Assembly (NCBI GenBank): GCA_964035545.1
Contig: OZ037765.1
Coordinates: 20,398,995 to 20,462,994, forward strand
Length of the DNA: 64,000 nt
From: Bugula neritina
Lineage: Eukaryota > Animalia > Bryozoa
Reading direction: 5' to 3'
Of this stretch, positions 1 to 41,754 are shown piece by piece (positions within the stretch are counted from its first letter, which is position 1; the number at the start of each line of letters is the position of its first letter). The position numbers and the translations under genes were made by a program. The notes beneath the pieces are model-generated. The model did no database searches. It worked only from the letters and a program-made list of their open reading frames with translations, and was not told where the DNA came from.

Positions 1-97
1 CATACTTAACCTGAATTATATTGTGGAAATGACAAACTAGCTTGTAAAGCTATCTACATCTTAATTGCACCTCAATTTGCAATTTTTTTTACAACAG

Positions 98-4600: not shown

Positions 4601-4839
4601 TGTTTTCACCATTCAATGTTTATGTATTGGGTGCTTATATGCATGCGTGTAAAGCTTATTATATTTTCTTATAAAATACCCACATTTGTTTTTAAAGTAT
4701 CCACCCCTGTCTTAACTTAAAAAACATTTTCCGGCCGGGTACATTATAACCAAATGCCTTTCCTGACATCATAGAGAGCAAAATCCAAATTCATAATCTT
4801 AGGCTTACCAAACCAGCACTCCTAACTCTAAAGTCTAGA

Positions 4840-6190
4840 TTAGTGTTTTCCTCAAACTGGGGAAAATTTGGGTTTTCAATGTAAGCGTTCTTTCTAAAAA
4901 GCTCAAAGCTCTTTGAACTCTCCTACTGTTTTCTCAAGATACACATGTGTATCTATAAAGTCTTCATCTTAACTAATTTATTTTAAATCTAGACTAAATT
5001 TTACAATCCAAGTCTACTTCTGCATGCATGTGTCCATTAATATTGATATTTGAGAGAAAGTAATTGCTAAAGTCAAACAGTCCATTTTTCTCTAGAAAAC
5101 TTGATGAGTCCACTTTTATATCTATAGCAAGAATGTGAATGATGATTCCAGAAAAAAGAACTTAATGTTTTGTCAACTCTTACTTCCACTATTTAAGCTG
5201 CAGATGTGATGAAGCTTGTTGGCAATATTTATAGATACAACTGGGCTTACTTGATAATACCATATTAAAGTGTATGTACAGATGGAGCCTCGGCCATGTT
5301 GGGATCAATATATACTGGAGTGTTGTACGGCTGGCAAAGAAGAAAAGTCATAATATATAAGGTGTGCACGGCTTCATTCGCTGTGAAGCATTCGTTTCCA
5401 GAACACTGTACTACAAGCAATAGAATCTAACTTGGCAATGAACATCAAGATTGTGAATTACATCAAGGCTTTAGCACTAACTACTTACCAGCTATTTTCA
5501 GCACTGTGTCAATAGGGCAATGCTACATTCACTACTTTGCTATTTGTGAGGTAGTCATCCAAAGGTAACATGGTAGCCCGACTCTTTCGAATGAAATTCA
5601 AGAAGTTTCATGAATGCAAAAAACCAACAGGAACCTTTATTACGGCTAAAAGCAGATCTCTATGAGCTGTACACTGCATGCAATGTATTTGCTACACTAA
5701 GTAACTTGAACTAAATTACAAGGGTGCAATCATTGCATCATTGCTTTTCATAGCAGTATCAATGCTTTCAAAGCTAGACTGAAGTTGTGGGGGACACTTG
5801 CTCATATAGAAAATGCAATGTTTGTCTCCACACCCAATAAATTATTAAGAAAGGAATGTGCCCTAAATTTTCTCTAAAAAACACATTTGGAAATTTTTCT
5901 GAACTCATGACAGAGTTTGAACGGTATTTCCATGAGCTACCTAGAAGATTCCTAATTGGACACGTGACCCATTTAAACGCTCTGTTGAAGAGACTATAGG
6001 TAAATTACAGAAGGATTTCGTTAAACTGGCTACCAATTCTACAAATTGAAGAATAGTTTCAAATCTTTACCAGTTGACGAATTTAAGTTATAACAAGCAA
6101 CAAGCAAATTTGAGATATATGTCCTAGTGAAAGCATCAGCTGAAGCCATCACGTTAAAAATTGAACTGCTCTGTGTTTTATACATGCATG
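4840..6190 (+). mobile_element. Degenerate hAT (Buster/Charlie/ZBED5-SCAND3-like) transposase remnant
   Basis: Interrupted translation shows LDEST (~5100), CTDGASAMLG (5275-5304), VHGFIRCEAF (HCxxHxxxL-like, ~5364) and IKIVNYIK (~5444); many stops and frameshifts. A TIR-like TAGTGTTTTCCTCAAACTGGGG lies at ~4840. Confidence 0.75.
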
Positions 6191-6727
6191 ATATCGTTGT
6201 AATCATATTATAATCAAATATAAAATTGTATCTTATATTATACCAGTCTTTTTAAAGGAGATATAAATTTTACTTTTCAAAAGGGGAAAATTAATAGTGA
6301 ACACTTATGAGTCGGGAACGTATGAAAACGGTCAGCTGGCAGCCATTGCTGATGACTGGAAAATGGCTGCTCCTAAATGTTTTCTTATTTATCTTATTTA
6401 TCATTAGTTTTAACTTCATTGTTAGCTTTATTGTAAAAAGCAGTTATTAATGTTTTTTGTTACTCATTATTAGTTTCAATGTGATAAAACTAGATTTAAT
6501 TCTAGCTGCCACATAGAAATATATTTATAAACGCATTAGACATAAACTTGTGTTTTGTCAAACTGATAGTTAAGTTAATATAAATTTGCATAAAATAAAA
6601 AACTGTACACTATCAAAAACTGACATCTAAATATCAGCAGCATGTAACGGAAGTTTTCGAGTTTAACTTTAAAACTATAAAAGCTGAATTACTCTAGTAA
6701 TGAGCTTACATGCTTGCAACTGGGTCA

Positions 6728-6929
6728 CTCACGCAAGTTTATAGTCGCTATCCCTGTGAGAAACCCCTGATGGTAAGGGTTTTTGCTAGAACGGGCTAAG
6801 GACTTGTTTAAATGAGGCACAGGAGCAATTATGACTGGATGCTCTTCCTAACATCACCAATGGCCTTTGTCGGGGTTTGAACCCACAACTTCGTGTTCAC
6901 AAAGCAAACGCTTTAACCCCTAGACCACG
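6728..6929 (-). mobile_element. tRNA-derived SINE (family A), full length, with 16-bp target-site duplication
   Basis: Minus strand begins with a tRNA-like head (A box TGGTCTAGGGG, B box GGTTCAAACCC), then core GGTGATGTTAGGAAGAGCATCCAG. Flanked by direct repeat GCTTGCAACTGGGTCA at 6712-6727 and 6930-6945. Homologous copies elsewhere in the window. Confidence 0.85.
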
Positions 6930-7015
6930 GCTTGCAACTGGGTCAACTAGTTATATATTTTTGCCTTATATAATAACTTCTATGGTGAAAGGAATAAATG
7001 AAATGACGCATTAAG

Positions 7016-7241
<226 letters not shown>

Positions 7242-8617
7242 GTCAAGCAGCTGTAGATACACATGCAGGTATTAAGACTTGAGTGTAGACCATTTATTAG
7301 TCATGCAGGTAACAGAAAACAAACTATACCATACCACAACCAGCACATACCATTTACAGGTAAAAATATTATTCTAAAAGAGCTACAGCTATCTCTCACA
7401 TTGCCATAGCAAGCACCAGATAGATCTTCTCATGATGTTTAAAATAATTATTTGTCTAACATAACTGACACTAACCGAAACATATTCATTTAAATTGAAT
7501 TACTTTAGGATTTGAATATAACTATGGCACCAGTGCCAAGCTAGGACAAAAAATAGTCTCGTCATAATTAGTTCTAATTATATAATAATTTACTCATCAG
7601 TTGGTGACATTACCTATCTAATAATACTTAGAGCACCACTAATATACATTTCTGTTGTTATTATTGCTAATTGATGAGCAATAATGTGTGTGTTGTTTTT
7701 TACATTGAACTCTTCTAGAGCCAGTATACTTGCAGCATAAATATACAAACTGAATCACTCAAACAAGCAAATAATAGTTCAATTCATTATTTACTCAAAT
7801 CTCTCGAATAATAAAAATACAAAGATAATATAACCGTCTTTTCAGTAAATCACTTTGTTAAACAGTGAGCGTTGTACTAGCTATTCTTTAACATCTTTTG
7901 CTATCAAATAAAAGAGTATAACAAGAGAATGTATCACCATGAGTGAACAAACAACATACATTATAATCTAAGGAATAAAAAGTTCATAGTTTTGATTGAG
8001 GAAGTTATTCATTAGCAAAAGCAAATTATTGTATTTCAAACAATTGTCATTCATAAATTAGAACTGATGTGTCAAAACTTTTCATTGACATATATAATAA
8101 ACTTGTGCTTTTTATATATTATGAAGGTATTTGCCTTATATTTTAGCTTTATATATATACTGTGTTGCAATAGTCTAGCCTACTTTACACCCTCATAATT
8201 TGTTCAACTTATATTTATTTTAATTCGTATTTTGGTAAAAATAATAGCTCACAATTTATAACTGTAGCTTTGACAAAAGTTGAAAGTATAGATTTGGATA
8301 AAGTTAAGCACATGTAGGTTTTAACTCTTGAAAATTATACGAACACTAATTGACAGAGCCTGAGAATGGGCACCCCTGAGAATTGGGTAGTTAATGTGAA
8401 ATATACAGGAAAACTTATGCTATGACTGCATAATTTTTAACCAGTATATATGGATATATACAACATACCAAACATATACATATATACTATATACATCTTG
8501 CATTAAGTAGGTATACAGCCTCTTTATTTCCTAATGTTATGTGTCTAAGCCAATACAGTTTCATATACCATGATATGTTCTATAGAATTTTGTTAACTCA
8601 TTTGATATTGCGAGAAT

Positions 8618-8760
8618 GTGGTGTAGTTATTATTGTAATGGTTAGCACACTAGCTTGTAAGTTGGAGATCTGTAGTTCGATTCCCAAATGGGGAAGGAAT
8701 TTTTTACAAATAATGTTTCATCTTACTTTGGTACTCTTGTGGCCATTGGGAACTTGAATA
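8618..8760 (+). mobile_element. tRNA-derived SINE (family B), degenerate
   Basis: TGTAATGGTTAGCACACTAGCTTGTAAG...GTAGTTCGATTCCC head; related pieces at ~30517-30575 (+) and 40610-40670 (-). Confidence 0.55.
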
Positions 8761-9149
8761 AAATCAACTAATAGCATGAAATAACGTGTGCACACCAAAT
8801 AAATGAAAGCTGGTTTAAAATGTTGGTTTCAAGTATATTGCTATAAGCTATTTTATCATTTCTAAGGTTAAAAGAGAGCATAACTCTAAAATTGATTGAT
8901 TGCATTCTGGCGCACTTTCGAAATCAGGCTTGTTAATATTTTTTTGGTTTCTGGTATAATAAAGTTATTGTTTCAATGAAGATATCAAGTTTAATTATAC
9001 ACTTGTATTATCTGTTATTTAATAGCATACGCCATACATGGATACTTTAGCTACATTATCAACAATACTGTGTCGTCTACTTACTAAAACTCTTGGACTA
9101 TGTTATTGAGAATTTAAATTTACAAAAGAGTGTATATGAATAATAAAAC

Positions 9150-9362
9150 TCATGCAAGTTTATAGTCACTATACCTGTAAGAAACCCCTGATGAAAGGAG
9201 TTTTTTCAAATAGACTAAGGACTTATTCATATGTGGCACAGGAAAAAGTATGACTGGATGCTCTCCCTAGCTACAGCATCACCAATGGCCTTTATTGGAG
9301 CTCGAACCCATGACTTTGTGTTTACTATGCCAATGCTCTAACCCCTAGATCACAGTTGCTCT
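9150..9362 (-). mobile_element. SINE family A copy
   Basis: Colinear with 6728-6929 (CAAGTTTATAGTC...AAACCCCTGATG...CTAAGGACTT...ATGACTGGATGCTC...CATCACCAATGGCCTTT...CGAACCCATGAC...AACCCCTAGA). Confidence 0.8.
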
Positions 9363-12300
9363 CTATAAAGGAATGTACCAGTATTACATGCTAGTAAACA
9401 TAAAAACATTATATCAGATGTCCTTTGTTCATTGTCTCCATCTTTTCAAATTATGCATGAACTTAATATTGCTATGAAATTATCAATTTTATAATATTTA
9501 ATCCAAAGCATGAATTTGTGTCTTGATTCAATAAAAACATAAGCAACAATTGTTTTAGTCAACATCTAACTTGTAAGAGTCGAAAACTATAAAAATAGCT
9601 TTTAAAATTGTATAAACTGATAAATATAAAAAAATTATCAATCATATTTGATTCGCACAGTACATTTAACACAAAATATAATATATAATAATAAAATACT
9701 TGCAAGTAGCAACCTTACCGTAAAATATATGCTTATTTAGAGTTATACTCTTTTAATGTATTTTATGCCATTGTGTCACAACTTCTCAATACAAACTGTT
9801 TTTAACATAGCATGCAGCAATCCAAGGGGTAACAACTCTTAACATTCACTCAAGCCTTTAGATAACTAAACATGCCAGACCAGATATTACTGTGTAATCT
9901 TACAGTATTAAAATTTTCAATAACTGATTTAGGCTTTTGAGTTCTATAAATACAAAAAGCAGCTTTAATTCATTTTTGCAAGGAAGTTGAACTTATTCTA
10001 AGCTTTTGGGCATTTTTGCTGTTGAACATGATAACTTTTGATTTCATCTATTTGCAAATGTCTGTAACTAACTGAACGAAGCCATCACTATTGAAATGTA
10101 GCCAAAGTATAATAGTGAAGATGTCTACGAATACATCTATAAATAGATTGAAGGGTCTGCTGATTTTCTACAAAATTGTAATCATGTAAAAATGCAATGT
10201 CCAATAACTAAAATTAAAAAAGTTTTTTGTCGCCAAAGTTCTTGTAAGTTTACCTTAAATATTTCCACAGTTTTTTTAAATATTATTGAATAATATATAT
10301 TGCATTTTCAATGATATTTGGATATAAGCCAATTGATTTGGTCCCCATAACGTATTTAGATAAATCGACAGTAGCATCAAATTTAAGAAACTTCAATTTC
10401 TTCAACCAACAAGTTTTTAGATTATGAGAAAACCCCATGAACTGTTGAAAATTTAGAAATTGCAATAGTTGTTTTACATAACTTTAATAATAATCAATCA
10501 AGTTTAGCAATAAATTAAAGTTTGCAAAGTAATGCAGTTTGTTAACAGAGCTGTAAAAGTATCTCAGTTGCTAGAGGTTTCATATTGCTAAATAAACAAC
10601 ATGCAGCATTGAAGGTTTATTTTAGTTTTTATTTCTGTTATTAATATACTGGCTTCATGGTATGTATGAGTGTATTTTTTTAATTGATCACGGAAAATTG
10701 TAAGTATCAGTAAGCTTCATACATGCGAAATATGCCTTAATTGATGCGAATTCTTTTTTAATCAAGTTATCAATGCAGATATGACTATAATATAGTTTGA
10801 AAATTTGCTCAGCATCTTTCACTATGTCCTGAATAATTATGATAAAAACTTACTGCAATACTAAGCTGCACGAATGTCTATATTCATTGCAATATTGTGA
10901 TGGTTCTGTACAGAATAATTAGCTGTAAACGTTATTTTACAATATGCATTGTTTCAATGTGATTGATCAAATTATATTTTTAAGAAAAAAGGCTATGAAA
11001 CATAATGTCACATAATGTCACACAGTAACAAAAACATTTATCTTACATAGGGTATTATTTTAAAAACATCTTAGACATGACTTCTCCTTTTTTGGACATT
11101 GACAAATACTCCTACAGGCTTTATCTCATCTCTATATACTAGACTGCCAAGTTCCACACATGTGGATATTTCCACTTCCGTGACTAGAATATTACAATCA
11201 AGATTTCTTTGCGTTGATAGTATAGAAAATAAATGTCAAGTGGTATAGCATTACGTATTTTAAATTGATATAAGAAGCTCATTCAGTCCAAATTTATAGT
11301 ACTCATACTGCACCACTATAGATAATAAGGCATTTTTTTGACACCAATAATACATTACATCTTCTATGATGTAATGCAAAAACTGATTCGACTCTTTACG
11401 GCATATTCTCCATAAAGTCTGAAAAATCTCACTTGCGCAACACTCTGATGGACGTTGACCAGATGAGTCACCGAGCCAGGTGGATGCTGTAGTGAATGTA
11501 GTCAATTGGATCTCTTTCAACAATTTCATTTTTCTACGGTTTTCCTAGTGTCAAGACTGAAATTAAGATGAGAAAAAAATTCTTGAGCTATTTTGTAAAA
11601 AGTAAAATGTTGAAGAAACATCAAAACAGTCACATGCATTCCTGACTCAGCTGGCTTCTTGCCACAATTATTATATCTTTTTATTATGGTTAAGCTTATA
11701 ATCAAATGAGAGCTATCTAACCCTGCCCTAAGCATAGAAATATGCATAAAAATATCTCAAAAATTGATTGAATAAAAGTAAGGCAAAACTCTGTAGCTAG
11801 AGACAAAGCAGAGAAAACACACAAAAGAAAGCACGTCACCAACCATTGTACACAGTTTTTCATTACAAGTATGGTTACCTCTATGATAATATCCTATGCT
11901 TCTACATCCTCCAAAACGATGACATAAACTTGTTTAGCATCACACTATTGAGAATGTGGTGCATGGTGGTGGATGGGCAACGACGCAATGGATGTAAAGA
12001 AAGGTGTTTGTAGTAGAACTTTTTTAGAGTTGAGTCCTCCTGCTCGGTATTTCTCTCCTAAAATAAAAAAATATCCTTAGCAAATTGATAATAATTGATG
12101 TGCGCAAGTGACTAATTTAAAAACACAAAGTCATGCAGGTGACTAATTCAAATTGCTATCTTGCCATCTTCAATATTCTCACCAACACTGAGAGCAAGCT
12201 TTTTTTGTAGAAGTTTATAAAATTGAACAATTGTTTACATGTGGGTGTAATCTATTTAATAAATAAAACTAAAAAATTAATGCTTACTTTTCTAGATGAC

Positions 12301-12479
12301 TTTTCTGGCCATTTTTATTTTTCCAGCTATTGCTTTTAGTGAAGTTTCATTCCATACGCGTAAGCATGAGTGAATTGGCCTTTTCTGTTTGGATAAAGAC
12401 AAGTATCACATAAAAAACTATAACTCCAGTTCCAATTAGTCTTCATCTATCTGGTAAAAGAGAATTTGCACACCAATTG

Positions 12480-13154
12480 TTTTGTGGAAAGTGAATGAAA
12501 TAACACCCTGCAAGAAATCTTTTGACATTGCTACAGAGCTATCCAGAGGATTACAAAAACGACCGCAGGGCTCTTTTTTTGCAAAAAAGGAACATATCAT
12601 TTATAATTTGAATAAATTTTTGACCCAGGACTTCATGGTTTAAAGAGTTATGGCTTAGTTGGCGGTTAAAAAGAACCAGTCAGTAATCACCACAGAAGTA
12701 TTGTAAACCATTTCTCATTGAGTAATTTTTTATAAGTACTTCTTATAATAGTACAAGCATTTGTATAAACAGTTTGCAGTGTATAAGCAGTTTACTCTGC
12801 CATCAGTACATTGAGATTTGCTTTCCCATAAGCAAAAAGTGAAAACTATTCTCCAGAAGCCTGTAGGCTTCGTAAGCCTTTTGTTACAGCTCACTTGCAC
12901 TCCACCATAATTTTTCACAATGTGTTAAAGTAGGTCAATACATTATACTTTTATTCTGTGATTAATTCCCAAGTTAATAATTTATGTGGAAGCATATAGT
13001 GTAAGTTTCCCACTGTCTTAAGATTGATTTTATAGTCATCATAGTATTCAGTGTGATTTTACCCCCATTTTCCTTAGCCTATAGTAACTTCAACTCTGCA
13101 TTTAAACCTAACAACACGTATGAAATGAAAGAACTGGCGACTGCGAACATCCAT
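12480..13154 (-). pseudogene. Putative decayed accessory ORF of the Polinton, divergently oriented
   Basis: ATG at 13154 opens MDVRSRQFFHFIRVVRFKCRVEVTIG*GKWG*NHTEYYDDYKINLKTVGNLHYMLPHKLLTWELITE*..., continuing via frameshift into ORF 12730-12918. No recognisable family. Confidence 0.3.
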
Positions 13155-13505
13155 TTTAAAAACTAAACAACGCATTTCTCAACTATACCAGTAACTATAT
13201 TATATTGAGTAGATACTGGGGGTTTTCAGATATTAAGTAGGTAACATAACGCAGGGTGTGTATACAATTGTAATATTATATATGTGTATAACGCTTTTAA
13301 ACAGTAAATAGAAATGCAAAATAATGCGGTCTAACAAGCAAACAAAAAAGAAACAAACCGTTGCTAAAGCAATTAAAAGAGCTTTACGAATTGATTTAAT
13401 CCAAAAAGATTAGTGAACTGACAAAACGCTTTGCGCCGCAAAGAGATTATAAATTATTAAGTTGCTGAACATCTGCTACACTCATTTGATAAAATAGTCA
13501 GTGAA

Positions 13506-14240
13506 ATGTCCACATACTCATCACCTAACCTAGTCTCTTTATCTATATCAAATCAAACATCCCCGTATTATAGCTCTTTGGTAAGTAATACTAATATAAT
13601 ATTTGTAGACGTGTCTTCCGTATTGTTATTTTTTCTTTCAAACAAAATTTATTTCACCCTAAAATATGCTTAAAAATGTGTGTTTTTTTGTAGATTTCTA
13701 ATTTGCAGACTATTGTCTCACTGTATGAGCTGAAAAATGAGGTGTATTGGCTCACTTCTAAAAGAATAGCTTGTATCAATGAAGCTGAGTACGCCCTGTG
13801 TTCAGTTGAAGACCAGGAATATTTCAAAGGAAAAGTTCTATTTCCATACGCAATTATAGATGAAGTTGGTATGGCAAGCCACTTCATCATTACGGATCCC
13901 AGAAGAGGTAAATTAGCTAGGTTTATTTTTATCTCCTCTCAGCAAACTGAGAATGATCCACTGACTACGAAAAACATCAGCGGGATCGAGAAGCTGCTCT
14001 TAAAGTATATAGCCGCATTAGATAAACATTTATTTTTTTCAAAATCATTTATGTTCGTAAGTTATTATGTATGTAATCTTGCTCATACTAATCATGTTTT
14101 GAGATGTAGAGCTTGCATTACGAACCCACACCCTTGTGATGAGTTCTGTAGCAATTGCCCTCACCATTATTTTTTGTCATCTGTACCTTGGTGTAAAATT
14201 ATACATTCAGGGTTTTTAAATTGATTAAATACAGATGCAA
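13506..14240 (+). pseudogene. Two-exon Polinton accessory gene (exons 13506-13580, 13694-~14224): small beta-rich domain plus C-terminal Cys/His motif
   Basis: GTAAGT donor at 13581 and TTTTTTTGTAG acceptor at 13693 join in phase 0 to ORF 13703-14224. The C-terminal HVLRC...PHPCDEFCSNCPHHY is paralogous to 20281-20390. Confidence 0.6.
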
Positions 14241-14281
14241 ATATTATTTTGAATGCCTAATATTTATCTATTTATACAAAA

Positions 14282-16976
14282 AAACTTGAATGCGATGAAT
14301 GGCTTATTATTAAAACACCTGCACTAAAGCTTCAGTGCATTCAAACCGATCAATTTAAGTTTGTAGACATTATCAACTTTGTGGCCCCTGAATTTAGCTA
14401 TGCTCGTTAACTAAAAGCTTTGGAATGTGAACAGCAGAAAGGTTTTTTCTTTGTACGAGTACATTGATACAGTTGAAAAGTTGAACGAAACAAGTCTCCC
14501 ACCTCATTCAGCATTTTATAACTCCCTTACAGCAACTAACATATCATCAAAAAGTATGAATATTGCTAGCGTGTTTGGGAGGAAAACAAAATGGCTTCAC
14601 TGGTTGATTTCCTACGTTGGTACTCTTTTCTCAATGTGAAACCATTTTTAGAAGCCATAGAGAAACAGTCTCAAATATACCAGCTTAAAAACATTGACAT
14701 GTTGAAGGAAGCAATTTCCCTTCCCGGTTTGGCGGTACGTTGGAAGTTTGCAGAAATAAATAATGATGGAAATGACATTCCACTGATATCAAACAAAAAT
14801 TCCGATTTGTACACGACGGTAAAACGTAACATTGTAGGCGGGCCCTCTATTGCTTTCCATCGATACCACAAAAAAAGTGAAACAAAAATTAGAGAACTCG
14901 AATATCAGCAAAGCGCAAAAGTATGCCATCAGATTCTAGGCTCTCTATTTGTGGTGCATGGGCCAGCAGATGCCAACTGGAAGCCCGATCAGAAGGCGCG
15001 CTGAAAATAGTTTTAAACCGGAGTTTCCTGAAAAATTTGGTCGGATGGCCTGGGGTTACTTGCAGTATGTAAGGCATGTTGCCGATAATGATATTCAGCA
15101 CATGTACAACAGAGGTGAAAGATGAATTGGTCAGCAGGGATTGCCAGTGGATGGTTTTTGTGAGACCACAAATACTGTTTATCAGTTCCACGGTTGTCTG
15201 TTTCACGGCCATAAATGTACATTGACGGAAGGCATCGTCACAAATCCAGTTAATGGTGTTCCCATGACAACACTGCACAACAAAACTGATCTAAAAAAAG
15301 ATTATATAAAAACTCTGGGATACGAAGTGACAATTATGTACGAATGTCACTGGAAAGATTTGTTGAGACTCAATCCTGATATATATTGTTTTGTTGCCGA
15401 ATTAGAGAGTAGGACTATGACGCAAAAAGTTTCAACGAATGAATTTGAAATAATTCAGGCTTTGCAACATAACAAGTTTTTTGGTCTCATTGAATGTGAT
15501 ATTAGCGTTCCAGATAATTTGACTAATAAGTTCTCTGAAATGCAACCTATTTTTAAAAACATTGAGGTAACCAGACAGGATTTGAGCGAGCACATGAAAG
15601 CTTTCACAGAGCAAAGCAATCATTTGAGTTGCGGGCAGAGGATGTTGATAGGTAGCATGTGTGGTCAAAAACTTATGCTGTTTAGTTCCTTAGCCCAGTG
15701 GTGCTTGAAGCACGGTTTGATCATTTCAAAAATCTACCAAATTGCTCAGTTCAAGCTGCTAAATTGCTTTCAAAAATTATGCGAATCCCTTAGTAATGCC
15801 AGGAAAATGGAAGACGCTTGCCCAACAAAAGCGCTGCTAGCCGACACAGCCAAATTAATTGGCAATTCAGTCTATGGGGAAAGTGATAACAAATAAAGAG
15901 AAACATAGGGAGGTTTTTTATACGAATAGCCAGCATAAAGCCTCTCATAAACTTAGGGATTATCGCTTCGTGTCATTGGAAGAGCCCTGTAACAATTTTT
16001 TTGAGTTGAGTTTAGAAAAGAAAAGAATTGTTCTGGACACACCATTTGTATTGGGGTTTTCAGTTTTACAATACGCTAAACTTAGAATGTTGCAATTCTA
16101 TTACGATTGCATAGATTTTTACATTCCTAGGGACTCATTTTAATACATTAAAATGGATACCGATTCGGCGTATATGGCTCTTGTTGGTAGCTTGAAGAGC
16201 TACCAGCAAGAGCTACCAGTAGGGAATCCGAAAGCGCCCTAAGTATTGGTCTGGTATCATTCATTAAAGTATATATTATTCTGAAATCATTCATTAAAGT
16301 ATATATTACTCTGATATTATTCATTAAAGTATATATTACTCTGATATTATTCATTAAAGTATATATTACTCTGATATTATTCATTAAAGTATATAAGTTA
16401 GATAAATTTCTCTGCAAATTTTAGAAAGTAAAAAGTATTGACAATGGAAACTTATGAGAACATTTTAAAGTTGGATGAGTTGACAGAGAAATACCAGAAA
16501 GAAGCTGCTCAAGAGAAAGTTTTTTGAGGAGTACGGCGAGTGGTTTCCAAGACCTTACTGCTCTCTACATCATCAAAAATTTGTTGATGAAAAACTACAG
16601 TGCAATGAGTGAAGTATGCCCGAGTGTTGCAAGCAGCAACACGACTTTGATCGGCGTACTCCTGCCCAGATTGTTCAAGGAAGAATTTATTGGTGATGGA
16701 ATTGTGGCACTGAATTCTGAAACATATTACTGCTGGTCAAGGAGTGGTAGCAAATTTAGCACCAAAGGGATTAGTAAGACGTTGAACGTTCCGATTAGAG
16801 AGCAGTTTCTAGAAGTACTCAACACTAAAAAGTCAGTGACAAGGGTGAATAGAGGCTTCCTAAAAAAAGACAACCAAATATTTACATACTCTCAAATTTG
16901 AACTGGACTGACATACGGATATGGAAAGAGAAAGGTTGTCGGTGATGGTGTTTCTACATTACCAATAGACCTTTAA
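14282..16976 (+). pseudogene. polB: Protein-primed family-B DNA polymerase (pPolB) of a Polinton/Maverick, N-terminally truncated and frameshifted
   Basis: FKFVDIINF, KGFF/YEY, LPPHSAFY, NIVGGPS..FHRYH, SLYLWCM (motif A with the catalytic D deleted at ~14940), inserted VDGFC..VYQFHGCLFHGH nuclease-like block, KLIGNSVYGK (motif B), F*YIKMDTDSAY (motif C, 16138-16173), LFKEE, KFSTKG, C-terminal KRKVVGDGVSTLPIDL* (stop 16974-16976). Confidence 0.95.
16258..16395. repeat. 30-bp tandem repeat (TCATTAAAGTATATATTACTCTGATATTAT) x~4.5 within an insertion in polB
   Basis: Directly visible; the insertion (~16200-16470) interrupts polB just after the DTDS motif. Confidence 0.95.
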
Positions 16977-17279
16977 TTAATGCTATTACAGTGTTTTATT
17001 TGTGAAATTTTATATCACATCTTTATTATATATGTACTTAAAGTTTTCCTTCTATATTCAGCATTAATTTTTTTTTTTATCTCTCTAATATAACCATACA
17101 ACTTTTTGCTCCACTGCACATATCATTTGTAATAATATTTTATCACTAATAAATATTAGCCGAAATAACACTCATTTATTTCTTCGAATAAGCAATAATT
17201 ATGAAAGCGGTATAAAATAACATTTTCAATGCTATGATACATCACATTTAATAATTAATCCATATTTATATAAGAAACA

Positions 17280-17743
17280 TAGTAGCACGCACACCGGGAA
17301 TTAAATAATATTAATATACATTTTGAGCTAGTTCAAAGTAAAAATACGATTCACTAATTATTTTCAAGCTTTCGGAAGTTATACCGTGAGATCGTATCCA
17401 TCTGTCATAGGGGAGATGGATTAGCAATGCATAGTCTTCGAAGTAGTTGGATATCAGTGATCTATAAATAATGCAATAAATTATTAACAAATACATTACG
17501 GGTACGCCGGGCAAGTTTACTTGGTTTTTACCTTAAAGACACCTACTCGAGGTAGTTTACTTTAGAAACTATTTCTAAGTAGTCAATAATCTACGGCTTA
17601 CTAGGTAATATCTACCGGATTAATTAATATTAATGATTTATCGGGTTAAACGTAACGCTTCAAGAGTTTTAATCACATACCCCCTCACAACCTTCTCAAA
17701 AACCTCCTCAAAAGGAGGTCTCAGATCTCCCCCATATACTACT
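17280..17743 (-). repeat. Candidate right-hand terminal region/TIR of a Polinton, ending ...ATATACTACT
   Basis: Non-coding, CpG-richer segment downstream of the polB stop, ending in ATATACTACT (17734-17743; reverse complement AGTAGTATAT) and abruptly followed by polB coding sequence. Confidence 0.6.
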
Positions 17744-17865
17744 AGTGTATAAGCGATCAATTCAAGTTTGCTGACATTTGCAAAGTTCTATATTGCTCCA
17801 GACTACACGTATAAAAAATATCTCAAGGCATTCGATTGCAGTGAAAACAAAGGTCAATTTTCCTA
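17744..17865 (+). pseudogene. polB: Exonuclease-region fragment of a second, divergent pPolB
   Basis: CISDQFKFADIC / YIAPDYTYKKYLKAFDCSENKGQF aligns with CIQTDQFKFVDIINFVAPEFSYAR*LKALECEQQKGFF at 14336-14450 but is clearly a different sequence. Confidence 0.8.
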
Positions 17866-17869
17866 AAAG

Positions 17870-19109
17870 GACAGAATTTTAAATATTTAAAACCAGCAAA
17901 TTTACAAATGCTCTGCAAATATTAAAAGGCAACTAACAAAAAATTGAAAAAAAAACAACCACACACATAAAAATCAACTGCAGGCCGGCATTTGTACTTA
18001 AAAATACAACCAACCGAGAGTACAGATATTTTCCCTCATCTGATAATAATGGTCAACTTTTTGACAAATCGGTACTGATCCAATCAGTAGACAATTTCTT
18101 AGGAACTATTGATAAGTTTATGGCCGTTAAAATTTTAGAGTGAGTGTTACAACAACACACTAATAGTTCTTGAAAGGTTGAACCTCTTAAAAATATCAGC
18201 TTTTACCAATAAAAGATTTTAAACATAGGTAAATTAGGCAAGCCAAACAAAAGCTCTCAAAAGGGAAATTTGTATGATGACAACCTGTGCTTTTTCAGTT
18301 ATTTATCTGTAAAGATTTGCTGCTTAAGTGCAAAAGACGTTTGTGCAAAGCGGTCAGTGAACATAAAGCTCATCTTTTGTTTGGTAAATTCAAGCAGAAA
18401 GTTAAACTCTCCGGTAGCTATAATTGTTAGTTTAGAGGTGTTTGGCTGAAAGATTTTCTGGTTCTCAAACTTTTTTTTAAAGTTTTAATTACTGTTTTTA
18501 AGTTGTCACCGAACAGTAGCAGTAATGTACTATAGAGTTCAAAATCAAAGCTTACCTCAAAACTTCACCTCAATTTTTTATGCAAAAGCATATGGCTGTT
18601 TTCACTGCGAAATATTGTACAAATGTTTATTTCTTTTCAAACGACACAGTTGTGACTCGAAGCAAAAGAGCTTAGCTTTCCCTAAAAAATGCTATCAACC
18701 AAATCAGAATATTTATGAGTTCTCACAAGAACCAGCAGATATCCATGTCCAGCCTTCCAGACATTTTTATACTTATCGCATTACTTATGACATAGAGACA
18801 TATATGTTTAAAAAAGGTTTTCTACCAAACACTGAAAAATTAAAGTTTACAGCTAAACACAAACTTTTGAGTATAAGTGTGTGCTCAAATGTCCCCGGCT
18901 ACAATTCTCCTCAATGTTTTATAATTGAAGAAAATGTAAAAAAAATTGATTTCTTAGTTTATTGAATATTTCAGTTCAATAAGTACTGCGAGTTTTACCA
19001 TTTCATTAGACCAGTTCAGGACAATTGAATGAATACATGAACAGCAGCGAAACATAGAAAAAGATTTCACTGATGGCAAATTCTCTAATCTTAAAATTTA
19101 TGCTACACG
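17870..19109 (+). pseudogene. polB: N-terminal part of a Polinton pPolB (terminal-protein-like region, Cys/His motif, Exo I)
   Basis: KINCRPAFVLKNTTNREYRYFPSSDNN, YDDNLCFF (18273-18296), CFHCEILYKCLFLFKRH, FYTYRITYDIET (Exo I-like DxE), HKLLSISVCSNVPGY are motifs recognised from animal Polinton pPolB N-termini; multiple stops. Confidence 0.75.
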
Positions 19110-19290
19110 AGTAGTATATATTGAGCATATCGAGTAGTGGATTGTGATGGTAGTTCTATATGTTATAATGGGAAGGCCTGTGTGGTGGTGGTGCAGTGGT
19201 GGTGGTGCAGTGGTGGTGCTCGCGTTAAGGCGGCGTTACGCTACGTTGATAGGCCAGTGATTAACGACCTAGCGGTTATTGATAAATAAT
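19110..19290 (+). repeat. Candidate left-hand terminus/TIR of another Polinton, starting AGTAGTATAT
   Basis: polB reading frame ends abruptly at 19109; AGTAGTATAT (19110-19119) is the exact reverse complement of 17734-17743; followed by GC-rich GTGGTGGTGCA repeats and a CpG-rich subterminal stretch. Confidence 0.6.
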
Positions 19291-19346
19291 GAATTATTAG
19301 TATAATTATAAAATTAATTTGAATACTGGATAGAGTTGCCAGCAAA

Positions 19347-20050
19347 ATGTCACTTAGGTGAGTACGTTGTTAGTTTATTACATGGAATAGTTGGAGACAA
19401 TAATAAATTGATGAGTCTACCCGTGCTGATTTAAGTATAACACATAATAATTATTGCAGCTGTAATGGATTTGAGAGTTGTGATCCCCACATTCTAGAAC
19501 TAGTCAAATAAGCTCTTGAAATCACAAGTGTGTCTACACAGTCTCTACAGCTAGTGAATAATATGGCTAATGTAAAGAGAAACCTGGAAATGATGAAGGA
19601 GCAGGCCGCAAAGTTAAGGTTAGTAAAATATTTTAAATACAGCATGTGTATCTATAGCACATAATTATTGTATTAGTTGCATTACCAAGTAAGCATAGTT
19701 TATTAATAAAATTGTAAAGTACTTCACTGTTTTTTTTTTAGGAAATTAGAAGCCAAAACGTTGCTGGAACGACAACGACTGTATAAGCTGACAGAACTAC
19801 CTGCTGGTAGCGTGCTGGAGGTGAGTTCAGAAAAAACAATAGATACAGTGAATGGTGAGGCACTACTCATCGAATTTAGTAGCGAAATAAAAGGAGAGAG
19901 AGTCTAGGGGAAACCTATTATCTCCAATTGTATGAGAGAGGATGTCTCGGGGAAGGTGCCCCTGATTCTATTGTATCATGGAAAAAATCTGGGTAAGAAC
20001 GGCAAAAAATTTCATCACCTCACTGCAGTCAAGATCAATTGCACAGCTCC
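19347..20050 (+). pseudogene. Three-exon Polinton accessory gene (19347-19357, 19460-19618, 19742-~20050): coiled-coil plus small beta-rich domain
   Basis: GTGAGT and GTTAGT donors and TGCAG and TTTTTAG acceptors all join in phase 2: MSLSCNGFESCDPHILELVK*ALE...MANVKRNLEMMKEQAAKLRKLEAKTLLERQRLYKLTELPAGSVLEVSSEKTIDTVNGEALLIEFSSEIKGERV*GKPIISNCMRED...; two premature stops. Confidence 0.75.
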
Positions 20051-20057
20051 CAGCATG

Positions 20058-20156
20058 CCCATACAACTAAAGCACATTGAGAAATTAGATAAACTGATGC
20101 AACCAGCAATATACCCACTAAGAAGAGTAGACATGAAAACATTTAACATAGATACA
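20058..20156 (+). pseudogene. Short fragment of a Polinton major capsid protein (paralogue 1)
   Basis: PIQLKHIEKLDKLMQPAIYPLRRVDMKTFNI aligns with GVQLKHIEMMEKKLQPSIYPIR*VAMKTYNI at ~24493-24585. Confidence 0.75.
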
Positions 20157-20199
20157 TATAGGTACAGCACACAATCTAAAACTCCTCTCACTCATGTAC

Positions 20200-20430
20200 A
20201 GCCTTATTATTTTATTTTCATTATTAAAAGAAGCTACATTAGTAACTGTAAATTACAGCATATTTTATACTGCTTATATTAAACATGTTTTAAAATGCAC
20301 AGCTCGAACTATGAGCCCACATCCTTGCAATGAGCTGTGTAAGAATTGTCCTCACCATTATATTTTGACACCTACACAATGGCATTAAATTATGCATGCA
20401 GGGTTTTTAGATTTATCAAATACAATTGCA
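20200..20430 (+). pseudogene. Fragment of a Cys/His-motif accessory gene, paralogous to the C-terminus of the 13506 gene
   Basis: HVLKCTARTMSPHPCNELCKNCPHHYILTPTQWH*IMHAGFL vs HVLRCRACITNPHPCDEFCSNCPHHYFLSSVPWCKIIHSGFL. Confidence 0.75.
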
Positions 20431-20712
20431 GCTTCTATAAACAATTACACTATAACAGGTTTTATTATATTACAAGTTGTTTTATTTTGTTAAGGTGATT
20501 AACTTATGTATAAATTTTAATTGACATGTGTATGGTTTACGAAGTTTAATGACTATACTGAAGTTATTAACACATGCATTAAACAGCATCATTTATAATA
20601 ATAATTTTTAATGGATTCTATAAATTGTTGTGCAAGCATAAAATTTTTGATTTAACATCTTCATTCTTTGTGGTGAAAACTTGGAAAAGAAAGACTCAAA
20701 AAACTAAATCAG

Positions 20713-20949
20713 ATGCACAAATTGGGAGATTTCCAAAAAGGCAAGGTTGCTGAGGTTACTTCCTTAAAGGTAATCAGAACATCAAATGGCGAATGCTTAT
20801 TGGTCGATTTTTCAACAGAGATTGACGAAGACACTGTAACTGGGAAGCTTATAATTCCGGATAGAATCAGAAAAAAGACTGAAAGCACCGCGCCTCTGAT
20901 TATATTTACTATGAAGGAAAAAGTGGGCGATTTCACAGTTATGTTTTAA
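20713..20949 (+). pseudogene. Second copy of the small beta-rich accessory domain
   Basis: HKLGDFQKGKVAEVTSLKVIRTSNGECLLVDFSTEIDEDTVTGKLIIP...APLII aligns without gaps to YKLTELPAGSVLEVSSEKTIDTVNGEALLIEFSSEIKGERV*GKPIIS...VPLIL. Confidence 0.75.
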
Positions 20950-21653
20950 TCAATCCAGCATGCGAGATAGTTGAAAAAATTCAGTCAAAAGTAAAACACT
21001 GAATGACAAAGCAGTGTCTTTTATTTTTTGTTACAAAAAAGTACCATAGCAGTATGTAGCGATGTTGGTGCCAGTTCCAGAAAAAGATGAAAATAAAACT
21101 AGCAGGTGATGATGATATTCAACTGGGAATGTTAATGCTACGCTTTGAGTAATAAAAATAAAAGTTAATCAAATTTTACAAACGATGTACACAAAAGCTA
21201 CTGAAGTTTTACAAAGTAGAGTTCTCATGATGAGTTTCCATTGTGCAACAGACAAACAACACACTTAAACACTCTCCTGTAATGATGCTCCAAGTCAACC
21301 GCAGGCAATCATTTGACTTTTGCAGTGTACAACAATGTCTTTAAAATTTGGGGGAGTATAGGTAGAAAAAAGCACTAAAAATGCCAAGAACAAAAAAAAG
21401 TGAAACTGGTGAAGTTGAGGATACAAAAAAGCAAGATAGAAAGAGTCAATGCATTACTAAGTAAGAAAACTACAAACTCAAGTAAGCATTTTTATCTTGC
21501 TGCTGGTACAATGTTTATTGTATTTAAACCTATGCTAATATAAGGTATTATGAATTTCTTATTTATGAAGCAAAAATTATTTTCTAAAACTATAGCTATA
21601 TATAGTTTCATACAAAAGCAATGTTATATGTTTTATACGCAAAGGGTTAGCTG

Positions 21654-22205
21654 ATGATGACACCAGTAGGCACCTCAGAAAATTTCCCCTTGCAAAATAA
21701 ATGTCAGATATTACATGACAATGAAAAACTAATACCAACATTCAACCATTCCCATAAATTCTTTTTCAAGTCTGATAAATTTATCGGCGAGTTAAAATTT
21801 TATGAATCAAAAGGTCATAACAGTGGGCCATGCTTATATATAAAAAACCCAAACACCAAGAATTTGTTAAAAAAATCAACTGAAATTTAAAAAAAAAATT
21901 AAATTATATGGCAAAAGCAAAAACTTAACATTGCTCGGTTGTTATATTGACGTTGTTAAAAACATGAATGATGAGGTTTGTGTGAGTACGGTACTCAACA
22001 GAACACCTCAACTGTATTGAAGGAAAATAACTTTTCGGAAAAGTTGGGAAATTGACTTGCATTTTAAGAAATGGCGTTATAAAAAAAATTAATGATGAGT
22101 TATTTTGGTCACTAAATGTGATAGAAATTAAATTAGATGACATCTCACAAGATCAATATAGTTATTTTAAGCGAGCCGAACCAATTATAAGAATTTTGGA
22201 CTGAC
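21654..22205 (+). pseudogene. Decayed accessory ORF of unknown function within the Polinton locus
   Basis: ORF 21654-21890 continues through an A-run frameshift and stops into ...LFGKVGKLTCILRNGVIKKINDELFWSLNVIEIKLDD...; protein-like composition, no recognised family. Confidence 0.35.
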
Positions 22206-22633
22206 TGACACTGACTTTATAATGATAGGAATATGTTATATCTTTTGGTGACAGGGAAATATTGTATCAATACTATTTTATGTTGGTGAATGAAATACTG
22301 TTATGCATATGCATTTTACATTGAGCACATATCATTTTTTAAAAGCAAATTGTTAATATATACATCTATATAGTTCAATCTATCTCAATATATTTCAATA
22401 TATCTCAATATATACTCGGTGAAAAATGTTTAAAACTTTGTTCTTTTGGCTCCGATGAAGAGTGTAGTAAACCTGAGAATTCGAATTGATAATACTATAC
22501 TATATTTCAAGTACATTTATGAATGTACCTATTTACATATTATTAAACAATAAATCTATTTGAAGCAATTTTCTTTGATCCTTCTATCTCTATCAAGGTG
22601 GTTAAAAGAATAATTTGTATTTCATTGTTTTAG

Positions 22634-22970
22634 AAAAATTCACGTGTAAAATATGTGGAAAAAGTTATAACCACAGGTAAAGTTTGAGTAGACATCAAAG
22701 TATTCACAAAAAAGATTGTGATAAATGTAAACGGTTGTATGCACCGTGGAAAACGAATCACTGATGTCATAACACAGTAAGTAGAAAATGTTGTAACATA
22801 TGTTAGGAAATGGAAATGAATATACACCGGCATATTTTTTTAAAAAAAAGAAAAAAAACGTCAATACTTTTTCTTCCATTGACGTAGCAAAGTTATTTTC
22901 TCATCATGCAAAACTTTGCAAAATCATTACAGACCAACCCAATAGTTTAGTTTTGAATGTTATAATATAA
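22634..22970 (+). pseudogene. C2H2 zinc-finger exon with in-frame stops (not in the supplied ORF track)
   Basis: After acceptor TTGTTTTAG (22633): FTCKICGKSYNHR*SLSRHQSIH (22639-22707, canonical C-x2-C-x12-H-x3-H), then CDKC...H*C and CNIC*...HRH. Confidence 0.75.
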
Positions 22971-23032
22971 TATAGACAATAATCTTGAGTAGGGTTAAAT
23001 ATTTTACGGTAATTTGACACGTATGTAGTTCA

Positions 23033-23073
23033 GTCACATGGGAGGTCACATGGTTCATTCAATACTATATAAA
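23033..23073 (+). promoter_or_regulatory. Putative Pol II promoter: two GTCACATGG E-boxes and TATA box
   Basis: GTCACATGG at 23033-23041 and 23045-23053; TATATAAA at 23066-23073; ATG of a spliced gene at 23135. Confidence 0.5.
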
Positions 23074-23134
23074 CCAAGATTGTAGCATTTCCAAAATAAG
23101 AAACATCGATCAAAAGGAATCTTGCATTCCTATA

Positions 23135-24435
23135 ATGGAAAAGGGTAAAATAATTTTAGAGTAAGTTTCTTTTATTTTTCACTTCTTTGCTACCATATAT
23201 GCTATACATTAATGGTATATACACTAGTGCCTTGTACATGTTGCTATACTTTATTTAATTTGTACTATATAAGATTTATAGTTAGCTATATACTAGGGAT
23301 AAATGTGAAAGAGTTAGTCTTAATACTGATAATTGCTAAAAACTATTGTTTACGGAAAACTCTTTTTTTGCTTCTGTACTAATCTATCTAAGACAATTCA
23401 CAACATATTTTAACGTTGCATTTATACTTTTAACAGTCCTTTGGAACAAACTAAACAGCTAGAAAAAAAACTCGCAGAAAAAACTCAAGCTGTAAATTAC
23501 TGCTATACATTTGCTAGTCCTTAATGCTGTTCAAAGGTTAATTGTATAGTAGTTATTATTTTAGTGCAAATTCGGAAAAAGTTTTCAAACCCAAGAAACC
23601 TAGCTAACATGTAAAAACTGTAACTTCTCCAACTACCACCTTTATTACCATTGCTACACCTTCTCCTGTTGCAAGCGTATCCTCACAGGCTGAGAATACT
23701 TCAAGCACATCCGAAAATTTGGAAGTTCTGTAAGTAAAATCTGATTGCTTCCTTAATATGTAATGTTAATGATTTACCAAATATTATAACGGTGCTATTA
23801 TGTCTTGAAACAACTAGTGCAATGATACTATTATGAGTTGTAAACCATGATTCTCCAATGTATTTTAGTTCAACCGCTGATGTTGATGAAGAGCAAGACA
23901 ACACCGCAACTGAATATGGAGAAAAAACCTCTGAGCAATTTAAACCCAAGCTGCTGTCAGTTTTTAAAGACAGCAGCAATAAATACTACTTAACGTACAA
24001 CTCGGATAAGAGATTACATCTCAGTTTCCTCCCTTATCAAGGGACTTTGAAATTGTTCAGTAACAAGGAAAAGTTTGGAAATTCAATGATTATTGTAAAA
24101 AAGGGGGTCAACGGTGTTGTTGAAAGAATTAGGCAAACCGCTTCTCAGTTGTTAAACACCCCTGTTGACTTTTATGGAATGGATGATTTGGATGACCTTT
24201 TTGTCTTTTTAAGTATGGTTTTGAACAAAAATAAAGTAAAGTGCGCCAATGTTTTGGACAATGGTACAGAAAAATTAATACCCATTACGGAGCTTGAGCA
24301 CCGTAAATGTTATTTTAGCGCCATATCAACACCCTGGAAAAACTACAATAAAACCTGAATATTTTGGAAAACAAGCTAAGCCGACTAAGATTATATGCTT
24401 AGGTGTCGATGTAAGTGGGATGTATTTGTCTAACA
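23135..24435 (+). pseudogene. Four-exon Polinton accessory gene (23135-23160, 23437-23491, 23565-23729, 23869-~24435): low-complexity S/T/acidic N-terminus plus globular C-terminal domain
   Basis: GTAAGT donors at 23161 and 23730; phase-2 junctions are consistent for exon1-2 and exon3-4 (exon2-3 needs a 1-nt indel in an A-run); one stop in exon 3; exon 4 is ORF 23858-24358 continuing by frameshift into HPGKTTIKPEYFGKQ... Confidence 0.6.
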
Positions 24436-25020
24436 TACAAATTAAAAATGATGAATGCTTCATTTTTTGTCAGAAAAGCAAAAATAAATGCTGGTGTTCA
24501 GCTCAAACACATTGAGATGATGGAAAAGAAGCTTCAGCCTAGTATCTACCCTATAAGGTAAGTAGCCATGAAAACCTATAACATAGCTCAGGGTTCGTTT
24601 TCCAGTAATGAAGAAAACCTATTTACCGGAGTTCTACTCAAAAGAATTGTCATAAGCTTAGCTGATGCTAGAAACTTTGAAGGTATTTATGACAGAAACC
24701 CTTACAATTTTCAGCACTCTAATTTAAAATACTGCAGCTTGCTTATTGATGGCAAATCACATCCCAATAAATCACTGGTATCATATTTTAGAAATCGAAA
24801 CACTCTGAGGAATTATTTCACTTTGTTTGAATCTACGGGTAAAGCATTTCAAGACGTGAGTACTGATATCTCTAGAGAAGATTATATAGCAGGCGGCTAC
24901 GCCTTGATTTGCTTCGGCCTCACCCCTGACCTCCAAGAAAATGGTTGTTTTCACCTTATAAGAAAAGGGAATATATGGCTCGAATTAAAATTCTCTGAAG
25001 CACTGCAGAACCCTGTCATC
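24436..25020 (+). pseudogene. C-terminal half of a Polinton/Maverick major capsid protein (paralogue 2)
   Basis: YKLKMMNASFFVRKAKINAGVQLKH...YPIR*VAMKTYNI...ENLFTG..LKRIVI...F.G.YDRNPYNFQH...ISREDY..GY.L..F.LTPD....CFHLIRKGNI.LELKFSEAL matches the recognisable pattern of animal Maverick capsid proteins; single frame, one stop. Confidence 0.9.
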
Positions 25021-25165
25021 CGAGTGAACACTGGGTAGCTATCTACAAAACAGCGTACAACAAAGGAATATACTTTGACAGCTATGGGTCTCCCCCATTC
25101 AATTTAGAAGAAGTTGCAACGGTGTTAGATACATGTAAAGAATGGGAGTACAACTCTGAACTTGT
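25011..25165 (+). pseudogene. Adenain-type (adenovirus-like) maturation protease fragment fused to the capsid fragment by deletion
   Basis: PCHPSEHWVAIYKTAYNKGIYFDSYGSPP carries the catalytic HW and FDSYG motifs; truncated before the catalytic Cys. Confidence 0.85.
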
Positions 25166-33174: not shown

Positions 33175-33290
33175 TTTTTCTTATCTCATATTCCCCTCTT
33201 TGACTAAAGGTGATAAACCTCAGCTTGTCTGTTAAACAAATAGAGGTGTGATAGATAAGGCTGAAGATTTTAAATCATGTGAGATGTTGC
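33175..33290 (+). promoter_or_regulatory. Conserved GATA-rich upstream element of ANL gene copy 1
   Basis: Alignable to 47865-47975; identical 25-mer AAATAGAGGTGTGATAGATAAGGCT (33238-33262); conserved CTTATC, TGATAA and AGATAA sites; likely 5'UTR exon donor GTAAGT at 33362. Confidence 0.65.
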
Positions 33291-33521
33291 ATGTTGCAGT
33301 TTTTACTTTAGGGTAGATGAACAGACTTGAAAGAACTGATCAGCTATAAGCCTCTTTTAAAGTAAGTAAACTTCAATGTTATTTTCTTTTTATAGCACAA
33401 CACAAAGTTATGCTCTTTTAATGCATCTCAAGCTACATTTTTTAAAGTCTTATTTTATTGTGTAAATGTTTTATTACTCTACAAAACATGCTTTCTCTAT
33501 TGCATAGAAAATTTGACCAGC

Positions 33522-41754
<8,233 letters not shown>

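What the first reader, a model, noticed from the sequence alone, without database searches (positions are those of the whole stretch)
13506..25165. Same-strand collage of fragments from several different Polinton/adintovirus genomes: possible viral archive locus
Seen in sequence: short pieces abut directly, often mid-gene, and every recognisable piece from 13.5 to 25.2 kb is on the + strand. Order: accessory gene > polB-A (no N-terminus) > terminus > polB-C exo piece > polB N-terminus > terminus > accessory gene > ~100 bp capsid-1 > Cys/His piece > accessory paralogue > zinc finger > 4-exon gene > capsid-2 > protease. The duplicated genes (polB, capsid, Cys/His, beta domain) are diverged at protein level, so they probably derive from at least two distinct elements rather than a recent local duplication. 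Established: a normal Maverick has one polB and one major capsid gene between TIRs, and strand-biased clusters of viral/TE fragments are the architecture of uni-strand piRNA clusters. Inference: this is either a nested-insertion hotspot eroded by deletions or a locus that accumulates viral fragments as small-RNA templates.
Basis: partly seen in the sequence, partly recalled or inferred. Interest (0 to 1): 0.8.

Follow-up and report, generated by a model that had tools for sequence, protein, structure and literature searches.

The report
Eroded nest of several Maverick viruses
A 12-kb stretch of an invertebrate genome is a pile of broken pieces from at least two, likely three or more, different Maverick (Polinton) DNA viruses, likely left when elements landed inside one another and were then cut down by deletions; the shared strand is largely built into these viruses, and a role as an antiviral archive is untested.

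Summary
Overlapping polB and capsid pieces differ too much to be one element (capsid pieces 19/32 aa), and a missed third polB piece (24303-24432) is nearest another clade. Both Maverick-type ends (17743, 19110) abut polB coding sequence directly, as nested integration would give. Related contigs in other samples run on natively where the window jumps, so 14284 and 20060 are junctions. The strand signal is weak: in five intact relatives 53 of 55 long ORFs lie on one strand, leaving about 5-7 independent runs (p 0.06-0.016); a weak opposite-strand polB relic lies 2.4 kb upstream, making p 0.22-0.07. The two beta genes are neighbours in relatives too. No small-RNA data exist here, and the pieces are sense, not antisense, to the flanking host genes. 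Best reading: a nested, deletion-eroded Maverick graveyard (0.65); template-switch chimera 0.15; piRNA archive 0.13.

The parts
10331..10849 (-).
   Evidence: tblastn E about 1e-4 with two motifs in the right spacing; HMM 7.5 bits, 0 of 25 shuffles reach it; covered by X6 and X8 contigs
13190..13292 (+). Multi-copy piece resembling the outer part of a Maverick end (inferred)
   Evidence: raised summed depth and loose ends at 13214 and 13292; begins AGTAAC, not a perfect end motif
13299..14284 (+). Accessory gene A1 with an intron (about 13581-13693) and Cys/His-rich end; reading frame 13694-14221 open
   Evidence: P0143/P0145 83-89% identical; 2.05-kb contigs in X2, X5, X8 fit exactly 13299-14284 and run on unlike at both ends
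14285..17114 (+). polB-A: C-terminal part of a protein-primed polB with stops and frameshifts, plus 3' DNA
   Evidence: 57-72% to P0001; about 95% in DNA to X5, X6, X8 contigs
16201..16506 (.). Inserted high-copy repeat with a 30-bp tandem array; not Maverick
   Evidence: skipped by contigs of X5, X6, X8; very high summed depth in X5, X6
17211..17743 (+). Right-hand end of element A, ending ...ACTACT
   Evidence: follows polB-A natively in an X8 contig to 17484; motif and junction
17744..17870 (+). polB exonuclease piece C from another element, starting at the first base after the end
   Evidence: (115 of 183 aligned bases alike to polB-A)
17871..19109 (+). polB N-terminal part, more decayed, running up to the next end
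   Evidence: P0001 202-561, 39.5%; HMM to 19116; about 83% to the X6/X8 contigs that continue into polB-A
19110..20060 (+). Left-hand end (AGTAGTATAT...) of a different family, then beta gene 1 with a GT-AG intron, cut at 20060
   Evidence: ends share only about 10 terminal bases; intron position matches the gene model P0144
20061..20170 (+). Major capsid piece 1 (residues about 238-270)
   Evidence: nearest P0129 27/32 aa; three X6 contigs fit from 20061 on and have other letters before it
20171..20590 (+). 3' part of a second Cys/His gene
   Evidence: 76.9% over 160 bases to A1
20593..21182 (+). Beta gene 2
   Evidence: 71% aa to P0142/P0144, 38% to beta gene 1; follows a beta-1-like piece in X6 and X8 contigs
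22396..22780 (+). Repeat plus C2H2 zinc-finger piece like the one just upstream of polB in relatives
23135..24302 (+). Four-exon accessory gene of unknown function, cut at its 3' end; weak caspase-like lead
   Evidence: exon frames; Atlas 0.85, lead only; fold failed
   Evidence: six best of 95 homologues are the L-locus polBs, P0001 only 29%
24433..25017 (+). Major capsid piece 2 (residues about 217-410)
   Evidence: 69% to P0121; family folds as double jelly roll
25018..25165 (+). Piece of the adenain-like protease
   Evidence: 50-63% to relatives' protease, which hits Pfam Peptidase_C5

Best explanation
The locus is a pile of broken pieces of several different Mavericks that likely formed when elements integrated one after another into or beside older ones and were then likely collapsed by multi-kilobase deletions. 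Shown: different source elements; two element ends sitting directly against polB coding DNA; junctions where related contigs continue differently; no match to integrase, ATPase or minor capsid. Inferred: the order of events, that the ends mark integrase-made junctions, that deletions rather than pre-formed chimeras joined the small pieces, and that the locus has no function. Because these Mavericks carry their genes on one strand, each eroded element gives a same-strand run, so only about 5-7 orientation choices are involved.
For: Ends at 17743 and 19110 abut in-frame polB sequence with no spacer and share only about 10 terminal bases, so they belong to different families. In X6 and X8 one contig runs from a polB-N-like stretch on to 14284 and polB-A (joint 18936 to 14284), while other contigs fit 13299-14284 and then leave: 14284 is a join between two parts of one family. 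Zinc finger > polB-D > capsid 2 > protease is colinear with L008-type elements with gaps of about 6.9 kb and 0.25 kb. Pieces differ in likeness to related contigs (about 95% for polB-A, about 83% for polB-N), as separate arrivals would. 53 of 55 long ORFs in five relatives are on one strand. The interval holds other dead elements: a hAT-like relic at about 5.3-5.8 kb, an opposite-strand polB relic, high-copy repeats. One X8 contig shows an end motif just behind a beta-2-like piece, so such nesting is not unique to this locus.
Against: No target-site duplication survives for either end, so integration is inferred. Five to seven runs all on + is still p 0.06-0.016 if orientation is random. The order C before N and the 110-bp capsid piece between accessory genes each need an extra co-oriented element and large deletions, with no host spacer recognised between pieces. 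The intact relatives in hand are only 31-37% identical to polB-A over most of its length and lack ends, so the native gene order of the actual donor families is only partly known.
Confidence: 0.65

Rival explanations
1. The collage was built by template switching or microhomology recombination among co-replicating linear Maverick genomes (a defective-interfering-type chimera), or by ectopic co-oriented recombination, and then fixed at this site. Polarity is kept by the copying mechanism.
For: Very short pieces (110-130 bp: C, capsid 1, D) joined mid-gene with no spacer and out of order; all on one strand; polB exchange between Polintons by recombination is proposed in 10.1101/2023.08.22.554363 (passages).
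Against: Two complete-looking ends lie inside the pile, tail to head, against polB; pieces differ in likeness to related contigs; the outer ends are not a matching inverted pair.
Confidence: 0.15
2. The locus is, or lies in, a uni-strand piRNA cluster transcribed on the minus strand that traps Maverick insertions and keeps those that give antisense small RNAs.
For: All 5-7 runs, and a hAT-like relic upstream, are on +; mosquito clusters hold unidirectional fragments of many viruses with antisense piRNAs (10.1101/127498, passages); related Maverick sequence is present in other samples.
Against: Strand bias is mostly built in and one relic is opposite. The nearest host exons on both sides are on +, so read-through would give sense RNA, whereas mosquito read-through clusters hold viral pieces antisense (10.1101/2022.08.22.504762, abstract and passages). 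The pile is one virus group over 12 kb, not a mixed LTR-rich cluster.
Confidence: 0.13
3. Assembly chimera of collapsed repeats.
For: Repeat-rich region; no long reads seen; only some junctions appear in the listed contig rows.
Against: Run X1 has depth in 30 of 30 bins, holds 0.86 of sampled words, and listed contigs bridge 13190/13299, 16200, 25017 and 25165, and just reach across about 17870. X1 may be the source sample, so this is not independent.
Confidence: 0.04
4. All pieces come from one element that carries the paralogues.
For: The two beta genes follow each other in X6 and X8 contigs; homologues of the beta and Cys/His genes both list a 12,630-bp longest contig.
Against: Three overlapping or clade-discordant polB pieces and two overlapping capsid pieces; two unrelated ends inside the pile; relatives have one capsid gene and one polB locus.
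Confidence: 0.03

Closest known systems
Mavericks/Polintons (adintoviruses, Polintoviricetes) and their degraded endogenous relics (PMC8502044, passages; 10.1101/2023.08.22.554363, passages)
   Same: Protein-primed polB family, double jelly-roll capsid, adenain-like protease, AGTAGT-type ends (motif recalled), decay by stops, frameshifts and deletions.
   Different: Not one element: no matching inverted ends, no target-site duplication, no integrase, ATPase or minor capsid; several clades in 12 kb; accessory genes carry spliceosomal-type introns.
Nested transposon clusters (LTR-in-LTR nests, recalled; Ngaro retrotransposons inside EMALE virophages, PMC8547959 passages; retrotransposons inside cryptophyte PLVs, PMC12220804 passages)
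   Same: Later elements sit inside earlier ones and disable them.
   Different: Here both guest and host elements are Mavericks, and both visible ends interrupt polB; my searches listed no paper devoted to Maverick-in-Maverick nests.
Mosquito uni-strand piRNA clusters rich in endogenous viral elements (10.1101/127498; 10.1101/2022.08.22.504762)
   Same: Co-oriented fragments of several viruses at one locus.
   Different: Those hold cDNA of RNA viruses among LTR elements, antisense to a shown precursor, with measured piRNAs; here pieces are DNA-level (introns and ends kept), sense to neighbouring host exons, and no small RNA has been measured.

Membership tests
Maverick/Polinton (source of the pieces) | [quoted passage not shown] | tested here: met
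   246 homologues at E<=0.001, many with PF03175; pieces mapped
Maverick/Polinton (source of the pieces) | [quoted passage not shown] | tested here: met
   P0121 (69% to capsid 2) modelled at pLDDT 76 matches PBCV-1, iridovirus, mavirus and Sputnik capsids
Maverick/Polinton (source of the pieces) | Adenain-like protease next to the capsid gene | tested here: met
Intact Maverick/Polinton element | rve integrase, packaging ATPase and minor capsid genes | tested here: not met
   7 of 9 non-polB ORFs of L008, these among them, have no hit in the window at E<=0.01
Intact Maverick/Polinton element | Matching terminal inverted repeats and a 5-8 bp target-site duplication | tested here: not met
   three end-like sequences do not align beyond about 10 bases and their flanks differ
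Uni-strand piRNA cluster | Dense 24-31 nt PIWI-bound small RNAs with 1U bias from one strand | not testable with these tools
   no small-RNA or raw-read run was listed
Uni-strand piRNA cluster | Element fragments co-oriented beyond chance | tested here: inconclusive
   p 0.06-0.016 for 5-7 runs; 0.22-0.07 with the opposite relic; boundaries chosen after the fact
Uni-strand piRNA cluster | Fragments antisense to a precursor transcript | tested here: inconclusive
   neighbouring host exons are on +, the same strand as the pieces; a separate minus-strand precursor cannot be excluded
Nested insertion cluster | Element ends interrupting another element's sequence | tested here: met
   2 of 2 clear ends abut polB coding sequence
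Nested insertion cluster | Target-site duplications around the inner elements | tested here: inconclusive
   partner ends are missing, so duplications cannot be scored

The most novel reading that the evidence does not exclude
Mavericks in this animal insert preferentially into the polB gene of resident Mavericks in the same orientation (both visible ends interrupt polB, and their outer six bases agree at 5 of 6 read from the end outward), building a locus that the host transcribes antisense as a heritable small-RNA archive against a DNA virus family, a DNA-virus counterpart of mosquito viral piRNA clusters in a lophotrochozoan.
Probability: 0.12. Interest if true: 0.75.

Novelty: new member of a known kind. 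Interest (0 to 1): 0.3.

Why it matters
As a graveyard it is an ordinary outcome of transposon decay, useful mainly as a record that several Maverick clades, some with intron-bearing accessory genes of unknown function, have invaded this lineage (likely a Bugula-type bryozoan, inferred from the source name of P0144). It would matter more if a genome-wide count showed Mavericks targeting each other's polB in one orientation, or if small RNAs showed an antisense archive against DNA viruses outside arthropods; both are cheap to test.

Tried and rejected
No whole genome is held for the window and the L loci lie in no held record, so fragments could not be assigned to host families. Four scans of viral contigs found no relative. 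Pfam gave no hit at a curated cut-off for 30 of 30 window pieces and none for six frames of 1-13400; the interval 26.4-49.5 kb was not scanned in full, only five short ORFs from 36-54 kb. No RNA holder was listed; X8 and X9 are only guessed to be RNA and X8 also covers flank DNA, so their uneven depths say nothing on expression. Low or absent cover of 12.1-13.2 kb, 17.9-18.5 kb and 23.2-24.8 kb in X2, X5, X6, X8 hints that much of the pile is lineage-specific, but no contig joining across it was listed, so this is not used as evidence. Summed contig depth in X1 is near the flank level over polB, but depth is no copy number. The 4-exon gene's caspase likeness is a lead only (0.85; model pLDDT 36; no His-Cys pair recognised). 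The beta protein's OB-fold likeness is under the bar. A target-site preference rests on two sites; a third end seen in one X8 contig has a different flank. A cDNA origin was rejected because introns and ends are retained. Helitron capture was considered; I saw no Helitron ends by eye and did not test it further. Three look-ups in earlier findings were empty. Supplements of the papers were not read.
Full report
Observation. The window is AT-rich animal-type DNA with microsatellites and multi-exon genes; no genome is held for it. A search with the longest polB frame gave 246 relatives. Twelve of the 120 listed, laid on the window, place residues about 673-1460 of P0001 at 14327-16973, residues 690-713 again at 17789-17860 and residues 202-561 at 17952-18947, all on +. 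The 21 capsid relatives hit 20061-20204 and 24415-25017, and a further polB piece appears at 24303-24432. A model of capsid relative P0121 matches solved double jelly-roll capsids. Zinc finger and protease pieces match intact relatives. Exon frames of the accessory genes were read directly.

How many elements. The two capsid pieces overlap and share 19 of 32 residues and 63 of 96 bases; their nearest relatives differ. Piece C overlaps polB-A and aligns at 115 of 183 bases. Among 95 long polB relatives, polB-A and the N-terminal part both rank P0001 first, whereas the six best hits of piece D are the polBs of the L loci and P0001 is 29% alike (D is only about 43 residues, so this is modest evidence). 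In runs X6 and X8 one contig resembles the N-terminal part at about 83% and continues into polB-A, which related contigs match at about 95%, so the N-terminal part is likely from a sister element. At least two sources are shown and three or more are likely. The beta genes do not count towards this: a contig in X6 and one in X8 go from a beta-1-like to a beta-2-like piece (joint 20047 to 20593).

Junctions. The end at 17743 is followed at once by polB exonuclease sequence, and polB N-terminal sequence runs to 19109, where the second end begins. The two ends share about ten terminal bases and nothing else, and neither pairs with the end-like piece at 13190. Ends that cut another element's gene are what nested integration leaves; no target-site duplication can be scored because the partner ends are missing. 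Contigs in X2, X5 and X8 fit 13299-14284 and leave on both sides, and the polB contig rejoins at 14284: a join between two parts of one family. Three X6 contigs fit from 20061 on and have other letters before it. Zinc finger, piece D, capsid 2 and protease follow the order of L008 with gaps of about 6.9 kb and 0.25 kb; the 4-exon gene between zinc finger and D has no counterpart there. Seven of nine other L008 ORFs, integrase and the ATPase-like and penton-like frames among them (the last two labels are mine, from position and motif), have no match in the window. The 306-bp insert in polB-A is a separate repeat.

Strand. A metagenome scan gave 22 related loci from 53 pattern matches. In the five longest non-redundant ones 53 of 55 Met-initiated ORFs of 110 aa or more are on one strand; L011, L013 and L017 were left out as near-duplicates or decayed. 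These relatives are distant from polB-A and lack ends, so they show the group's layout, not that of the donors. The dozen pieces thus reduce to about 5-7 colinear runs; all on one strand has p 0.06-0.016. A decayed polB N-terminal stretch lies on the minus strand at 10331-10849; its HMM score of 7.5 was reached by 0 of 25 shuffles, which is real but weak support. With it p is 0.22-0.07, before allowing for boundaries drawn after the fact. A residual bias may exist; loss of inverted neighbours or co-oriented recombination would also give it (inference).

Reality and distribution. Nine runs were listed; X1 holds 0.86 of the words, has depth in 30 of 30 bins, and its listed contigs bridge several junctions (most rows were not shown). 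X1 may be the source sample. The other runs match the host flank at roughly 92-94% and hold related Maverick sequence in other contexts. P0144, in the cluster of the beta-gene homologue, is named Bugula neritina by its source and occurs as two gene models, so the host is likely a related bryozoan (inference).

Mechanism. Best supported is serial nesting followed by deletion (0.65). A template-switch chimera (0.15) explains the tiny out-of-order pieces and polarity but not two full ends inside the pile or the uneven likeness of the pieces. A piRNA archive (0.13) is not excluded: mosquito clusters hold unidirectional viral fragments with antisense piRNAs (10.1101/127498, passages) and are mostly read through from upstream genes (10.1101/2022.08.22.504762, abstract and passages). 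Here the nearest host exons on both sides are on + (their identity is weakly supported), so read-through would be sense, and no small-RNA data could be had. The archive and nesting readings are not exclusive.

Literature seen. Passages only: PMC8502044 (adintoviruses, degraded relics), 10.1101/2023.08.22.554363 (Polinton size, ends, duplications, polB exchange), PMC8547959 and PMC12220804 (retrotransposons nested in virophages and PLVs), PMC11131425 (many diverse polintoviruses per coral genome), PMC10120064, PMC11161782, PMC6085071. Searches for Mavericks in Bugula, for nested or head-to-tail Mavericks and for bryozoan piRNAs listed nothing devoted to these points; the library is partial and supplements were not read.

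Verdict. Observation confirmed; interpretation partly supported. A new member of a known kind: a nested, eroded Maverick cluster. Interest 0.3. The boldest open reading, polB-targeted co-oriented nesting used as an antisense archive, has probability about 0.12 and would deserve 0.75.

Noticed in passing
window 13581-13693, 19620-19741, 23161-23869: Maverick accessory genes carry GT-AG introns; the beta-gene intron position matches the NCBI gene model P0144. PMC10120064 (passage) states that such endogenous viruses in protists lack introns.
   Followed up: partly
window 23837-24302: Last exon of the 4-exon gene gives caspase-domain clusters as best Atlas hits (0.85, lead only); possibly an inactive caspase-like decoy.
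   Followed up: partly
window 17744-17749 and 19104-19109: The six bases outside the two ends agree at 5 of 6 when read from each end outward; both are native polB coding sequence.
   Followed up: partly
window 33177-41242 and 47866-55109: Tandem duplicate of a multi-exon + strand host gene about 14.5 kb apart, exons 79-98% alike; weak AMP-binding hit below cut-off, likely an acyl-CoA synthetase.
   Followed up: partly
window 10-267 and 1402-1677: + strand exon-like frames with tyrosine motifs recalling the tail of an ERBB-type receptor kinase (recalled; no Pfam hit).
   Followed up: no
window 4600-5900 and 42400-46030: Decayed hAT-like transposase motifs on + (family recalled) and a decayed integrase-like element on - with a 341-bp direct repeat at 42407-42731 and 45706-46028.
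   Followed up: no
window 11263-11834: Minus-strand frames with raised depth in the two runs guessed to be RNA (X8, X9) and a 247-base skip in X5, X6, X8 contigs; no Pfam hit; may be another gene of the upstream relic.
   Followed up: no
L001, L002, L008, L010, L014: Near-complete unidirectional Mavericks from metagenomes with zinc finger (and in L008 a dUTPase) upstream of polB; L008 integrase carries a chromodomain; L002 and L014 polB is split over several ORFs.
   Followed up: partly
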